This document shows positions 37,742-39,112 of a stretch of 64,000 nt of DNA, in pieces. Position numbers and translations under genes: made by a program. Numbering within the stretch: the first letter of the stretch is position 1; every line of letters begins with the position of its first letter. Source of the stretch: Candidatus Omnitrophota bacterium (GTDB lineage: Bacteria > Omnitrophota > Gorgyraeia > Gygaellales > JAQTUX01); contig JAQTUX010000002.1 of NCBI GenBank assembly GCA_028707125.1, forward strand, positions 80,355 through 144,354, read 5' to 3'. Below the pieces are notes generated by a model that searched no databases, had not been told where the DNA came from, and was given only the letters and a program-made list of their open reading frames with translations.

Positions 37742-39112
37742 TTATACCTGCCTCAAACTGCGCCTTGCCAACATCCCGGCAATTTCATAGTCCCTCTTAG
37801 CGCGGATAAAAAATGCCTCTTCCCTGGGGACAATAAAGTAAGATATCTTCCCGCCTGATAGATTCCCGGTTTCTAAATTGTTGTTTTTTATCGCTGTGGC
37901 CGTAAATGTCCTGGCGTAAACCACGTCAAACTCTGACTTCATTTTCTCCTTAGGGCCTATTGGCGTCAAGCCGTGGATGGCCCTCATATACAGGTCGTCC
38001 TCTACCTCCCGCACGCCAAAAACGGAATCGGTATTGTTCAGAACAAGCGTGTAGATAGCCTCTTCCAGCGTAGCCCTTGAAGTAAAAGGGGTCTGAATAT
38101 ACGAAAGAATGCTTATACCGGTATAACCGATCTTTAGCGATTTGACAATCCGCTCTAAGGTATATGAAATTGAACGCGATGATATTGTGCTTTCCTTGCT
38201 GCGCTCCACAAAACAGAGACGCCGGTCCCCATATCTTGAAATCTCCCTGTGGACAACTTTATTATCCGATGTAACAACGATCTTATCAAAAATATCTGAA
38301 GACAGGCAGGTCTCCATGGCAATACCCAGAAGCGTCTTGCCGTTAAGCTTCTTATTCCAGAGATCAGGATAAATATCGTAATTTCTACGGCAGGGTATGA
38401 CCGCGATTATCGGCCTGAATTTATCCAGATTGACGGCACAGGCGTCCTTCTTGATTATCCTTCTGGCGCTCAGTATCCGGACATGGTCCTGAGTAAGGTT
38501 TTTCCCGTGCCTTCTGTAATAAAATAACGGGAGATTAATGCCGGCGCATTTATATTCACGCAAGATCCTCATCCATAGGTCAAACCCGTCCTGTGCGTCT
38601 AAATCCTCTCTATAACCACCTAACTTTCTCAGCGCGCTTCTCCTGATCATAGTACATGCCCCGTTCGGCGGGGCATCCAGGGAATGAGCGGAATGGTGGA
38701 TGGACTGTTTTCCCTCATATCTGATAATCTCTCCATATTCGTCAACTAAGAAATAACCCGGGGAAACAAGGGCGACATCTGGAAATAGATCCAGGTAATT
38801 ACCCATAACCAATAAGATGTTCTCATCCAACACATCATCGGCATCCAGGCGCATGATATATTCGCCCCTTGACTGCTTCAGTGCAAAATTCGCAACCTGC
38901 GCAAGCCTCGTATCCTTAGAGTGAAAAACCCTGATTCGTTTATCGCCCTTATATAGATCCATAATATCTTTTGTATTGTCTGAGGAATTAACATCTATCA
39001 GGATCAATTCCCAGTTATCCACAGTTTGACGCAAAACGCTTTCTATCGCCTCCTGCAGATACCTGCCATAATTATGTGACGGGATATAAACGCTTATTTT
39101 TGTTTTATTCAT
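37742..39112 (-). CDS. Bifunctional GT2 glycosyltransferase / cytidylyltransferase-like fusion (second copy of this architecture)
   Basis: N-terminal GT-A (ISVYIPSHNYGRYLQEAIESVLRQ...ILIDVNSSDNT...LDADD). C-terminal CTP_transf_3-like (IIAVIPCRRNYDIYPDLWNKKLNGKTLLGIAME...VVTSDN). Confidence 0.6.
   Translation of the reverse strand: MNKTKISVYIPSHNYGRYLQEAIESVLRQTVDNWELILIDVNSSDNTKDIMDLYKGDKRIRVFHSKDTRLAQVANFALKQSRGEYIMRLDADDVLDENILLVMGNYLDLFPDVALVSPGYFLVDEYGEIIRYEGKQSIHHSAHSLDAPPNGACTMIRRSALRKLGGYREDLDAQDGFDLWMRILREYKCAGINLPLFYYRRHGKNLTQDHVRILSARRIIKKDACAVNLDKFRPIIAVIPCRRNYDIYPDLWNKKLNGKTLLGIAMETCLSSDIFDKIVVTSDNKVVHREISRYGDRRLCFVERSKESTISSRSISYTLERIVKSLKIGYTGISILSYIQTPFTSRATLEEAIYTLVLNNTDSVFGVREVEDDLYMRAIHGLTPIGPKEKMKSEFDVVYARTFTATAIKNNNLETGNLSGGKISYFIVPREEAFFIRAKRDYEIAGMLARRSLRQV

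What the first reader, a model, noticed from the sequence alone, without database searches (positions are those of the whole stretch)
37742..39112. GT2-cytidylyltransferase fusion (copy 2), adjacent to the NeuB-like gene
This has the same two-domain architecture as 24649..26004 but a clearly divergent sequence. It sits immediately downstream of the NeuB-like and cytidylyltransferase genes. Two diverged paralogues imply two different CMP-activated sugars handled by dedicated activator-transferase enzymes.
Basis: partly seen in the sequence, partly recalled or inferred. Interest (0 to 1): 0.55.

Follow-up and report, generated by a model that had tools for sequence, protein, structure and literature searches.

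The report
Glycosyltransferase fused to disabled sugar-activating domain
This gene encodes an intact family-2 glycosyltransferase fused to a domain that has the fold of a sialic-acid-activating enzyme but lacks that enzyme's catalytic residues; it belongs to a conserved, uncharacterised four-gene sugar-acid cassette, so it is probably a transferase that recognises an activated sugar rather than one that makes it.

Summary
Window 37742..39112 (-) is a real 456-aa gene with an N-terminal GT2 domain and a C-terminal domain with the fold of a CMP-nonulosonic-acid synthetase. It is 23% identical and colinear with the 24649..26004 protein, and it starts 2 nt after a short NeuB-like gene.

The interpretation as an "activator-transferase" is not supported. 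The GT2 catalytic residues are invariant in 78 of 78 family members. The fused cytidylyltransferase-like domain keeps the equivalents of Arg12 and probably Arg71. It has lost the P-loop Ser and Lys residues (K21 is Leu or Val, never Lys) and the Mg-binding Asp209/Asp211. It also scores below Pfam's threshold.

Canonical stand-alone cytidylyltransferase genes, one or two per locus, lie within 10 kb of the fusion in 52 of the 79 related loci tabulated. The order AsnB-like, short NeuB, fusion, with a cytidylyltransferase upstream or downstream, recurs across many phyla.

My best reading is a soluble GT2 transferase whose pseudo-synthetase domain binds the cassette's CMP-activated ulosonic acid. 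No characterised member was found. It is a new variant of a known kind and of moderate interest.

The parts
37742..39112 (-). Whole gene: a 456-aa soluble GT2 / cytidylyltransferase-like fusion (copy 2). The stop codon is at 37742-37744.
   Evidence: ORF list and translation. Identical to an NCBI Omnitrophica MAG protein. No transmembrane segment: the highest 19-residue Kyte-Doolittle mean is 1.47. Full-length AlphaFold model has pLDDT 84.2 and pTM 0.79.
38483..39112 (-). N-terminal GT2 (GT-A fold) glycosyltransferase domain, residues 1-210.
   Evidence: Pfam PF00535, 89.6 bits. The family profile hits 6p61 at E=5e-34 and the K4CP chondroitin polymerase at E=4.5e-32. Foldseek gives TM 0.9 to 6p61.
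38834..38845 (-). DXD motif of the GT2 domain (D90-A-D92-D93).
   Evidence: D90, D92 and D93, together with D45 and D175, are invariant in 78 of 78 family sequences.
38414..38482 (-). Helical linker, residues 211-233.
   Evidence: The model shows helices at 210-225 and 229-232. This is one of the two less conserved segments of the protein (40% mean pairwise identity, against 42% for the C-domain and 58% for the N-domain).
37745..38413 (-). C-terminal CMP-nonulosonate-synthetase-like domain, residues 234-456, catalytically degenerate.
   Evidence: Pfam PF02348 scores 21.5 bits, below the 22.6 cut-off. The PseF model scores 32.9 against a cut-off of 205.7. The family profile hits 1eyr at E=6e-6. 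Foldseek gives TM 0.76-0.83 to CMP-Neu5Ac, CMP-Kdn and CMP-Pse synthetases.
38357..38395 (-). Altered P-loop, P240-C-R-R-N-Y-D-I-Y-P-D-L-W252. It aligns with the canonical A-R-x-x-S-x-R/K-x-P-x-K.
   Evidence: HMMER alignment to 1eyr: R12 aligns with R242 and is kept, S15 becomes Y245, K16 becomes D246, K21 becomes L251, and N22 becomes W252. hhalign against 63 neighbouring canonical cytidylyltransferases gives the same register. No family member has Lys at the K21 position (0 of 78).
37790..37819 (-). C-terminal motif E432-A-F-F-I-R-A-K-R-D441, which replaces the canonical Mg-binding D-x-D / T-V-D motif.
   Evidence: Alignments to 1eyr and 1qwj and hhalign map D209 to F435 and D211 to R437. 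At the D209 position the close family has Phe in 49 of 59 sequences. At the D211 position only 17 of 59 have Asp.
39115..39825 (-). Short NeuB-like ulosonic-acid synthase: 236 aa, TIM barrel only, no SAF domain. Translationally coupled to the fusion gene.
   Evidence: Pfam NeuB E=5.8e-52. NeuB_NnaB scores 198.7 bits, below the equivalog cut-off. It lies directly upstream of the fusion in most related loci.
39816..41669 (-). AsnB-like glutamine amidotransferase, a member of the conserved cassette.
   Evidence: Pfam Asn_synthase plus GATase_7. The order AsnB, NeuB, fusion is conserved in most of the 59 close-orthologue loci.
41694..42422 (-). Canonical stand-alone cytidylyltransferase, the probable real activator of the cassette's sugar.
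   Evidence: Pfam CTP_transf_3, 86 bits. The motif QARMSSRRFPKK is intact. The equivalent neighbours in other loci all keep AR..S.R.P.K.
24649..26004 (-). Copy 1: a paralogous GT2 / cytidylyltransferase-like fusion from a different conserved family.
   Evidence: Pfam GT2 plus CTP_transf_3 at 37 bits. 23% identity to copy 2. It has its own family at >=64% identity. In that family the P-loop is shortened by about 7 residues, E432 and R434 sit at the D209/D211 positions, and the GT2 domain has xGH in place of DXD.

Best explanation
The gene encodes a cytoplasmic, catalytically competent family-2 (GT-A, inverting, DXD/metal-dependent) glycosyltransferase. It is fused through a helical linker to a pseudo-enzyme domain derived from a CMP-nonulosonic-acid synthetase.

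The fused domain keeps the synthetase fold and the equivalents of Arg12 and, probably, Arg71. It has lost the triphosphate-binding Ser and Lys residues and the Mg2+-binding aspartates. It therefore most likely does not make a CMP-sugar.

The protein is one member of a conserved cassette with three other genes:
- An AsnB-like amidotransferase, which probably tailors the sugar.
- A short NeuB-like synthase, which would build a 3-deoxy-2-ulosonic acid from PEP and an aldose.
- A canonical stand-alone cytidylyltransferase, which would activate that acid with CTP.

The fusion is the cassette's only glycosyltransferase. I infer that its pseudo-synthetase domain binds the CMP-activated (or CMP-bearing) ulosonic acid. 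That binding would either present the sugar as substrate or give the GT2 domain its specificity, so that the GT2 domain builds the glycosidic link involving that sugar in a surface glycan.

Shown: domain folds, residue losses, invariance of the GT2 catalytic residues, and synteny.
Inferred: ligand identity, which partner is donor and which is acceptor, and the final glycan.
For: 1. The GT2 domain is intact. Pfam scores 89.6 bits. D45, D90, D92, D93 and D175 are invariant in 78 of 78 sequences. The closest structures are UDP-sugar GT-A enzymes.

2. The C-domain has the CMP-NulO synthetase fold. The family profile hits 1eyr at E=6e-6, and all 50 top Foldseek hits are cytidylyltransferases.

3. 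Catalytic residues are lost, by two independent alignments (HMMER against 1eyr and 1qwj; hhalign against 63 canonical neighbours, probability 91%).
- K21 is Leu/Val/Ile, and Lys appears in 0 of 78 sequences.
- K16 is Asp in 57 of 59 close orthologues.
- S15 is Tyr or Phe.
- D209 is Phe in 49 of 59.
- D211 is kept in only 17 of 59.
- In N. meningitidis CNS, D209A gave no measurable activity and D211A lowered kcat 15,000-fold. Lys21 and Arg12 are reported as important catalytic residues (PMC2901514).

4. R242 (equivalent to R12) is kept in 59 of 59 close orthologues, and R304 (probably equivalent to R71) in 78 of 78. New family-specific residues are conserved: W252 in 58 of 59, D246 in 57 of 59 and C241 in 49 of 59. 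The domain averages 42% pairwise identity across phyla. It is therefore under selection, but less so than the GT2 domain at 58%.

5. Stand-alone cytidylyltransferase genes lie within 10 kb in 52 of the 79 loci tabulated. Of the 70 such hits, 62 match the AR..S.R.P.K pattern outright, and the other 8 show Val/Cys-Arg variants of it.

6. The cassette order AsnB, short NeuB, fusion, with gaps of about -10 nt, recurs in Omnitrophota, Desulfobacterota, Alpha- and Gammaproteobacteria, Planctomycetota, Synechococcus, Pelagibacteraceae and others. It also occurs outside glycan loci.

7. A 1043-aa natural fusion, P0316, contains NeuB, CTP_transf_3, GT2 and the CT-like domain in one chain. A cytidylyltransferase-family domain and the CT-like domain therefore coexist. 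This suggests, but does not prove, that they are not redundant.

8. GT-A enzymes with a DXD motif normally use NDP-sugars, and sialyltransferases usually lack DXD (PMC7439481; PMC5420450). The GT2 domain is therefore unlikely to be a classical CMP-sugar transferase on its own.
Against: - No member of the family has been characterised, so the ligand of the C-domain is purely inferred.
- I could not inspect model coordinates. Whether the C-domain pocket faces the GT2 active site is unknown.
- An invariant Glu (E432) lies three residues before the lost D209 position. About 29% of orthologues keep an Asp at the D211 position. A non-canonical metal site cannot be excluded.
- The equivalent of the sugar-carboxylate-binding Arg165 is not conserved, and the T106/S107 region is deleted. 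The ligand may therefore not be a typical nonulosonate.
- The residue mapping rests on remote alignments of 15-20% identity, although two independent methods agree.
- 27 of the 79 loci tabulated show no stand-alone cytidylyltransferase within 10 kb. Some of these contigs are short.
Confidence: 0.55

Rival explanations
1. First reader's model. The protein is a true bifunctional enzyme whose C-terminal domain activates a ulosonic acid with CTP and whose N-terminal domain then transfers it (activator-transferase channeling).
For: The fold and remote homology match CMP-NulO synthetases. Copy 1 passes the Pfam threshold at 37 bits. R12 and Q104 equivalents are kept in most members. An invariant E432 and an Asp at the D211 position in about 29% of members could form an alternative metal site. 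Natural fusions of cytidylyltransferase domains to tailoring enzymes exist, such as EpaA (PMC12053666).
Against: The K21, K16 and S15 equivalents are absent in 78 of 78 sequences, and D209 is lost. These residues are critical in characterised enzymes. A canonical cytidylyltransferase gene lies nearby in 52 of 79 loci. P0316 carries both a cytidylyltransferase-family domain and the CT-like domain. A DXD GT-A domain is not the expected catalyst for CMP-sugar transfer. Copy 2 is below the Pfam and PseF thresholds.
Confidence: 0.12
2. Dual glycosyltransferase. The synthetase-derived domain has been converted into a second, new kind of transferase that uses the CMP-ulosonic acid as donor. With the GT2 domain it would add two sugars in turn, as in the two-GT-A polymerases for chondroitin and heparosan.
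For: The whole-protein model's best Foldseek matches are the two-domain synthases PmHS2 (8vh8, E=1.5e-19) and K4CP (2z87). The cytidylyltransferase fold belongs to the same nucleotide-diphospho-sugar-transferase superfold (established knowledge). New invariant acidic and aromatic residues (D246, W252, E432) sit in the former active-site loops. Related CT-like domains with the same YD..PDL loop are also fused to a PseG-like GT-B domain (P0359, P0388). This variant domain therefore repeatedly partners with glycosyltransferase folds. The cassette contains no other transferase.
Against: No glycosyltransferase with a cytidylyltransferase-type active site is known. The whole-chain superpositions have rmsd of about 19 A, so only the individual domains match. 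No GT-A glycosyltransferase appears among the C-domain's top 50 structural hits. The C-domain is less conserved than a catalytic domain would be expected to be: 14 columns at >=95% conservation against 38 in the GT2 domain.
Confidence: 0.12
3. Regulatory sensor. The GT2 domain catalyses a committed pathway step, either glycosyl transfer or hydrolysis of an NDP-sugar to feed the NeuB-like synthase. The pseudo-synthetase domain would be an allosteric sensor of the end-product CMP-sugar.
For: Nucleotide-binding residues are retained while catalytic ones are lost. No NeuC- or PseG-type NDP-sugar hydrolase appears among the window ORFs scanned with Pfam or among the genes called in the isolated cassettes. 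Feedback inhibition by CMP-Neu5Ac is established for the animal enzyme GNE (established knowledge). PseG shows that a glycosyltransferase fold can act as an NDP-sugar hydrolase (established knowledge).
Against: There is no direct evidence. No dedicated GT2-family NDP-sugar hydrolase is known to me. The window also lacks a DegT-type aminotransferase, so the NeuB-like enzyme may use a simple free aldose and need no hydrolase. In that case the cassette would lack any transferase.
Confidence: 0.1
4. Structural remnant. The C-terminal domain serves only for dimerisation or scaffolding, since CMP-sialic acid synthetases are dimers, and has no ligand-binding role.
For: The C-domain evolves faster than the N-domain, 42% against 58% mean pairwise identity. 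The catalytic residues are lost.
Against: The most conserved C-domain positions are the former active-site loops (PCR...YD...W, QxPF, R298, R304), not a generic surface. The fusion has persisted at about 450 aa across many phyla.
Confidence: 0.1

Closest known systems
CMP-nonulosonic acid synthetases (Pfam CTP_transf_3 / NeuA, PseF, LegF; e.g. N. meningitidis CNS 1EYR, mouse CMAS 1QWJ, A. caviae CMP-Pse synthetase 9FTB, CMP-Kdn synthetase 9T4Z)
   Same: The C-terminal domain has the same fold (TM 0.76-0.83) and detectable profile homology (E=6e-6). The equivalents of Arg12, probably Arg71, and usually Gln104 are kept.
   Different: The P-loop Ser and Lys residues (S15, K16, K21) are replaced by Tyr, Asp and Leu. 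The Mg-binding D209/D211 pair is lost. The T106/S107 segment and the equivalent of Arg165 are missing. The domain scores below the Pfam and PseF cut-offs. It is fused behind a GT2 domain.
Family-2 inverting GT-A glycosyltransferases (SpsA 1QG8; Leptospira GT 6P61; the GT-A domain of E. coli K4 chondroitin polymerase spanning residues 374-618, 2Z86/2Z87; EpsE/TuaG-type)
   Same: The N-terminal domain shares strong sequence and fold similarity, a DXD motif and a conserved downstream Asp. It is soluble.
   Different: It carries a 220-residue synthetase-like C-terminal domain. It matches no NCBIfam equivalog; the best is EpsE at 83.6 bits against a cut-off of 450. Donor and acceptor are unknown.
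Two-GT-A bifunctional polysaccharide synthases (P. multocida heparosan synthase PmHS2 8VH8; K4CP)
   Same: The overall plan of two tandem Rossmann-like nucleotide-sugar-binding domains in one soluble chain is shared. These are the top whole-model Foldseek hits.
   Different: The second domain here is a cytidylyltransferase-type domain, not a GT2/GT-A transferase. The domain arrangement does not superpose (rmsd about 19 A).
Natural fusions of cytidylyltransferase domains with tailoring or transfer enzymes: EpaA (CTP_transf_3 + aldo-keto reductase, A. baumannii prophages), NeuA synthetase-esterase, PseF-PseG-type fusions
   Same: A CTP_transf_3-type domain is joined to another enzyme of a nonulosonic-acid pathway (PMC12053666). 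CT-like plus PseG-like proteins P0359 and P0388 were found here.
   Different: In EpaA and NeuA the cytidylyltransferase domain is taken to be the active activator and sits at the N-terminus. Here it is C-terminal, degenerate, and accompanied by a separate canonical enzyme. The NeuA and H. pylori PseF-PseG examples are from my own knowledge and were not tested here.
Known nonulosonic-acid transferases (T. forsythia Tanf_01245 / BFO_1060 family, GT-B/TagB-like; Maf proteins; sialyltransferases GT29/38/42/52/80)
   Same: They may share the pathway role of placing a CMP-activated ulosonic acid into a surface glycan. They are also encoded next to the sugar's biosynthesis genes (PMC5420450).
   Different: There is no homology. 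The known enzymes are GT-B or other folds and usually metal-independent, whereas this protein is a DXD GT-A plus a synthetase-like domain.

Membership tests
Glycosyltransferase family 2 (Pfam PF00535, GT-A fold) | Significant match to the family model above the curated threshold | tested here: met
   89.6 bits against a cut-off of 23.3, residues 7-164.
Glycosyltransferase family 2 (Pfam PF00535, GT-A fold) | DXD metal/diphosphate-binding motif and a conserved downstream acidic residue as candidate catalytic base | tested here: met
   D90-A-D92-D93 and D175 are invariant in 78 of 78 family sequences.
Glycosyltransferase family 2 (Pfam PF00535, GT-A fold) | GT-A three-dimensional fold | tested here: met
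   The AlphaFold model (pLDDT 84) superposes on 6p61 with TM 0.87-0.91 and on SpsA with TM about 0.7.
Glycosyltransferase family 2 (Pfam PF00535, GT-A fold) | Glycosyl transfer from a nucleotide sugar, with inversion | not testable with these tools
   Needs an enzyme assay. Donor and acceptor are unknown.
Cytidylyltransferase family CTP_transf_3 (PF02348; CMP-NulO/CMP-Kdo synthetases) | Match to the family model above the curated threshold | tested here: not met
   21.5 bits against a cut-off of 22.6, and only profile positions 19-127 of 217 are matched. The PseF equivalog scores 32.9 against 205.7. Copy 1 does pass at 37.2 bits.
Cytidylyltransferase family CTP_transf_3 (PF02348; CMP-NulO/CMP-Kdo synthetases) | Cytidylyltransferase fold | tested here: met
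   For the C-domain model (pLDDT 89.8), all 50 top PDB hits are cytidylyltransferases, TM up to 0.83.
Cytidylyltransferase family CTP_transf_3 (PF02348; CMP-NulO/CMP-Kdo synthetases) | P-loop Arg that binds the nucleotide phosphate (Arg12 in N. meningitidis CNS) | tested here: met
   R242 is kept in 59 of 59 close orthologues.
Cytidylyltransferase family CTP_transf_3 (PF02348; CMP-NulO/CMP-Kdo synthetases) | P-loop catalytic Lys (Lys21) and the Ser/Lys that bind the triphosphate | tested here: not met
   K21 aligns with L251, and Lys appears at that position in 0 of 78 sequences. K16 aligns with D246 and S15 with Y245. The role of the residue is from PMC2901514.
Cytidylyltransferase family CTP_transf_3 (PF02348; CMP-NulO/CMP-Kdo synthetases) | Pair of acidic residues that hold the catalytic Mg2+ (Asp209/Asp211, or the KdsB-type Asp pair) | tested here: not met
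   D209 aligns with F435, and D211 with R437 (Asp in only 17 of 59). There is no Asp two residues after Q340 either.
Cytidylyltransferase family CTP_transf_3 (PF02348; CMP-NulO/CMP-Kdo synthetases) | CTP + sugar -> CMP-sugar + PPi activity | not testable with these tools
   Needs an enzyme assay.
   The C-domain lacks the catalytic residues. A canonical stand-alone cytidylyltransferase is present in the window at 41694..42422 and in 52 of the 79 related loci tabulated.
Conserved AsnB-like / short-NeuB / GT2-CT-like / cytidylyltransferase cassette (defined here) | The genes adjacent and co-directional with the fusion | tested here: met
   The window order is CT (41694-42422), AsnB (39816-41669), NeuB (39115-39825), fusion (37742-39112). 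The same set is found in most of the 59 close-orthologue loci.

The most novel reading that the evidence does not exclude
The synthetase-derived domain could be a previously unrecognised functional class: a cytidylyltransferase fold repurposed to use, rather than make, a CMP-activated ulosonic acid. It would act either as a new type of CMP-sugar glycosyltransferase or as a donor-presenting module. In the first case the protein would be a two-sugar transferase. The four-gene cassette would then specify a so far undescribed amidated ulosonic-acid glycan that is widespread in environmental bacteria, including Omnitrophota, SAR11, Synechococcus and Desulfobacterota.
Probability: 0.15. Interest if true: 0.75.

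Novelty: new variant of a known kind. Interest (0 to 1): 0.5.

Why it matters
Transferases for bacterial sialic-acid-like sugars are poorly known, and automatic annotation calls this family only "glycosyltransferase family 2" or "CMP-NeuAc synthetase".

Showing that the synthetase-like half is a conserved pseudo-enzyme that always travels with a real synthetase has two consequences:
- It prevents mis-annotation of these proteins as sugar activators.
- It points to a compact, testable cassette (amidotransferase, short NeuB, canonical cytidylyltransferase, fusion) present in 556 of 185,579 species-representative genomes.

If the pseudo-synthetase domain turns out to bind or transfer the CMP-sugar, it would show how a nucleotidyltransferase fold is recycled for substrate recognition in glycan assembly. 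It would also give a handle on surface glycans of abundant uncultured lineages.

Tried and rejected
- Model coordinates are not exposed. I could not check the orientation of the two pockets or dock ligands.
- Four full-text literature searches for a characterised GT2-cytidylyltransferase fusion or for this cassette found nothing relevant. The Halorubrum paper, the Vibrionaceae paper and the Rubrivivax paper concern other proteins.
- I tested whether the large proteins downstream of each fusion (35872..37716 and 22720..24639) are the real nonulosonate transferases.
  - They have only sub-threshold hits to the PFTS-motif family (23.8 bits against 100) and the BFO_1060 family (19 bits against 200).
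  - They show no similarity to each other.
  - PDB sequence hits were noise only.
  - The 614-aa protein is not conserved next to copy-2 orthologues.
  - This question stays open.
- I considered that copies 1 and 2 descend from one fused ancestor. The copy-2 C-domain profile scores copy 1 at 26 bits, no better than it scores N. meningitidis CNS at 29 bits. Common fused ancestry is therefore neither shown nor excluded.
- The idea that the ORF is a chance or decayed gene is rejected by its deep conservation.
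Full report
**Observation**

The minus-strand ORF 37742..39112 encodes 456 residues. Its ATG lies 2 nt after the stop of the upstream NeuB-like ORF, with a GGAG about 14 nt upstream. It sits in a run of at least 56 co-directional genes that fill the 64-kb window.

Nearly all of those genes are glycan-biosynthesis functions:
- GT2, GT1/4 and PMT_2 glycosyltransferases
- NDP-sugar dehydratases
- a pyruvyl transferase
- an ABC exporter
- methyltransferases
- four AsnB-like genes
- five radical-SAM genes, four of them B12-dependent
- an FkbH-like gene

The protein is 100% identical to a "glycosyltransferase" from a Candidatus Omnitrophica MAG on a 510-kb contig. About 2000 homologues were found, and the best 120 are all about 455 aa at >=49% identity. 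This is a real, conserved gene.

**Domains**

Pfam finds Glycos_transf_2 at residues 7-164 (89.6 bits). It finds CTP_transf_3 at 254-368 with 21.5 bits, just under the 22.6 cut-off. The NCBIfam PseF model gives 32.9 bits against a cut-off of 205.7.

Deeper searches settle the homology:
- A profile of 40 family members hits CMP-NeuAc synthetases 1eyr and 1qwj.
- A C-domain-only profile hits 1eyr at E=6e-6.
- The full-length AlphaFold model (pLDDT 84.2, pTM 0.79) matches the Leptospira GT 6p61 for the N-domain (TM 0.9) and 1eyr, 1qwj and 9t4z for the C-domain (TM 0.78-0.84).
- The C-domain modelled alone (pLDDT 89.8) returns only cytidylyltransferases in its top 50 PDB hits. CMP-Neu5Ac, CMP-Kdn and CMP-Pse synthetases come first.

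There is no transmembrane segment.

The protein at 24649..26004 has the same two domains. It aligns colinearly at 23% identity, E=2e-17.

**Is the C-terminal domain an activator?**

In N. meningitidis CMP-Neu5Ac synthetase, Arg12 and Lys21 bind the nucleotide. Asp209 and Asp211 hold the catalytic Mg2+. D209A has no measurable activity and D211A lowers kcat 15,000-fold. Gln104 binds the sugar (PMC2901514).

The HMMER alignments of the family profile to 1eyr and 1qwj give this mapping:

| N. meningitidis CNS residue | Window protein |
|---|---|
| R12 | R242 |
| S15 | Y245 |
| K16 | D246 |
| K21 | L251 |
| N22 | W252 |
| Q104 | Q340 |
| D209 | F435 |
| D211 | R437 |

An independent profile-profile alignment against 63 canonical stand-alone cytidylyltransferases taken from related loci gives the same register (probability 91%, E=1e-6). 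In it, AR-x-x-S-x-R-x-P-x-K aligns with CR-R-N-Y-D-I-Y-P-D-L, and the conserved T-V-D aspartate aligns with R437.

Across 78 family sequences recovered from genomes:
- The K21 position is Leu, Val or Ile, and never Lys.
- The K16 position is Asp in 57 of 59 close orthologues.
- The D209 position is Phe in 49 of 59.
- The D211 position is Asp in only 17 of 59.
- R242 is kept in 59 of 59 close orthologues and R304 in 78 of 78.
- The GT2 residues D45, D90, D92, D93 and D175 are invariant in all 78.

The N-domain is more conserved than the C-domain. Mean pairwise identity is 58% against 42%, and there are 38 against 14 columns at >=95% conservation.

Copy 1 is degenerate in a different way. Its P-loop is about 7 residues shorter (IPVRGPVQYLN-KPLL), Glu and Arg sit at the D209 and D211 positions, and its GT2 domain has xGH where DXD is expected.

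The fold and part of the nucleotide-binding apparatus are therefore kept. The machinery for Mg-dependent attack on CTP is not.

**Genomic context**

In the window the order is cytidylyltransferase (41694..42422, 86 bits, intact QARMSSRRFPKK), AsnB-like (39816..41669), short NeuB (39115..39825, 236 aa, no SAF domain), then the fusion.

A scan of one genome per species found relatives in 556 species across many phyla. They include Omnitrophota, Desulfobacterota, Alpha- and Gammaproteobacteria (among them Pelagibacteraceae, Bradyrhizobium and Rhodoferax), Planctomycetota, Chloroflexota, Bacillota and Synechococcus.

In most of the 59 close-orthologue loci, AsnB and the short NeuB lie directly upstream with gaps of about -700 and -10 nt. 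A cytidylyltransferase gene lies either 9-40 nt downstream or, in Omnitrophota, upstream of AsnB. Overall, 52 of the 79 loci tabulated have a stand-alone cytidylyltransferase within 10 kb. Of the 70 such hits, 62 match the canonical AR..S.R.P.K pattern outright and the other 8 show Val/Cys-Arg variants.

The cassette also occurs on its own, away from glycan loci. One copy lies next to an integrase and a relaxase. Another lies among unrelated genes. A more distant subfamily (35-38% identity) has NeuB downstream, a cytidylyltransferase upstream, and no AsnB.

An exhaustive phmmer search of 1.84 billion representatives with the C-domain alone finds only 312 proteins at E<=1e-3. These are mostly about 450-aa fusions or fragments of them. 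Ordinary 220-240-aa cytidylyltransferases appear only at E of about 1e-7 or weaker.

One hit, P0316 (1043 aa), is NeuB + CTP_transf_3 + GT2 + CT-like in one chain. Two others, P0359 and P0388, join a CT-like domain with the same YD..PDL loop to a PseG-like GT-B domain.

Copy 1 belongs to a separate, even better conserved family, with >=64% identity among the top 120. Its conserved neighbours are a stand-alone cytidylyltransferase, 2-hydroxyacid, KARI and SDR dehydrogenases, and an uncharacterised protein of about 635 aa.

**Interpretation**

The most economical reading is that the neighbouring canonical enzyme activates the ulosonic acid made by the short NeuB. The fusion is the only glycosyltransferase of the cassette and would use its intact GT2 domain for catalysis. 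The synthetase-derived domain would then serve as a ligand-binding pseudo-enzyme. Its most probable ligand is the CMP-linked sugar, because what it keeps are the nucleotide-contacting arginines and what it loses are the triphosphate and metal contacts.

Whether the CMP-sugar is donor, acceptor or specificity ligand cannot be decided here. DXD-type GT-A enzymes normally use NDP-sugars, and sialyltransferases usually lack DXD (PMC7439481; PMC5420450). I therefore lean towards the GT2 domain using an NDP-sugar and the C-domain binding the ulosonate-containing partner.

The rivals are:
- a converted second transferase domain
- an allosteric sensor
- a purely structural remnant

Each is given with its refuting experiment in the structured fields.

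**Comparison with known systems, and novelty**

The N-domain is a member of GT2 by every test available here. The C-domain has the cytidylyltransferase fold, but it fails the curated score thresholds and lacks two defining catalytic features. I therefore do not file it as a cytidylyltransferase.

Fusions of cytidylyltransferase domains to other pathway enzymes are known, for example EpaA (PMC12053666). I found no report of a GT2-linked, catalytically degenerate one, nor of this four-gene cassette. Public annotations are generic.

I rate it a new variant of a known kind. Interest is moderate (0.5). The gene itself is an ordinary-looking glycosyltransferase, but the conserved pseudo-synthetase domain and its cassette are a clear, testable lead into uncharacterised ulosonic-acid glycans of abundant environmental bacteria.

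Noticed in passing
window 37742-42422 (-); loci L001-L004, L006-L063: A four-gene cassette recurs with near-identical order and overlapping or abutting genes across many phyla. Its members are an AsnB-like amidotransferase, a short NeuB without a SAF domain, the GT2/CT-like fusion, and a canonical cytidylyltransferase. It sometimes lies outside any glycan locus or next to mobile-element genes. Its product is unknown.
   Followed up: partly
protein P0316, 1043 aa: A single polypeptide contains NeuB (24-256), CTP_transf_3 (342-452), GT2 (585-742) and the degenerate CT-like domain (818-1032). It is a Rosetta-stone fusion linking three of the four cassette functions (no AsnB-like part). Its middle cytidylyltransferase P-loop also looks atypical.
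   Followed up: partly
proteins P0359 and P0388, about 570 aa: An N-terminal CT-like domain carries the same lysine-less YD/EE-VP-DL/YI P-loop and a V-R-N/V-N-S sequence in place of the Mg-binding D-x-D. It is fused to a PseG-like GT-B domain (weak Glyco_tran_28_C hit). The variant CT-like domain therefore repeatedly partners with glycosyltransferase folds.
   Followed up: partly
window 24649-26004 (-) and loci L086-L088: The copy-1 family has xGH (G89-H90-C91 invariant) where GT2 enzymes normally have DXD. It is conserved next to a stand-alone cytidylyltransferase and an uncharacterised protein of about 635 aa. In different loci it also lies near HpcH/HpaI aldolase, HMGL-like, KARI, SDR and 2-hydroxyacid dehydrogenase genes, and no NeuB is present. 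This suggests a different route to the activated acid.
   Followed up: partly
window 35872-37716 (-) and 22720-24639 (-): Each fusion gene is followed by a large protein (614 and 639 aa) with no Pfam domain. The only hits are sub-threshold, to the PFTS-motif polysaccharide family and to the BFO_1060 family. The latter contains the T. forsythia pseudaminic/legionaminic acid transferase. The two proteins are not similar to each other. They could be the real ulosonic-acid transferases.
   Followed up: partly
window 1-64000 (-): At least 56 consecutive genes lie on one strand and form one giant glycan locus. It holds four AsnB-like genes (10309-12294 degenerate, 39816-41669, 53770-55665, 60082-61992). 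It holds four B12-binding radical-SAM genes (4955-6454, 21216-22748, 30398-32101, 33165-34691) plus another radical-SAM gene (7338-8444). No DegT-type aminotransferase, NeuC or PseG was detected among the ORFs scanned with Pfam (ORF 59481-60113 was not scanned), which hints at a non-amino, Kdn-like ulosonic acid.
   Followed up: partly
window 42419-44482 (-); also L011, L017, L050, L057, L067: A 687-aa protein combines an AAC(3)-like N-acetyltransferase, DUF4910/DUF2172 and a winged-helix HTH_47 domain. It lies just upstream of the cassette. Homologues at 36-43% identity recur within a few kb of the fusion in other phyla.
   Followed up: no
window 29728-30444 (-): This is a second stand-alone cytidylyltransferase, 238 aa. 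It has a canonical N-terminal P-loop (VPVREGSSRIKDKN), but only the first 87 of 217 Pfam profile positions match. It lies upstream of the dehydrogenase genes that precede copy 1.
   Followed up: no
window 45817-47607 (-), 32085-33158 (-), 25994-29726 (-): The locus contains an FkbH-like gene, an Ldh_2 gene, two 2-hydroxyacid dehydrogenases, a KARI-like gene and an SDR gene. Together they suggest synthesis of unusual hydroxy-acid substituents or a branched-chain acid sugar.
   Followed up: no
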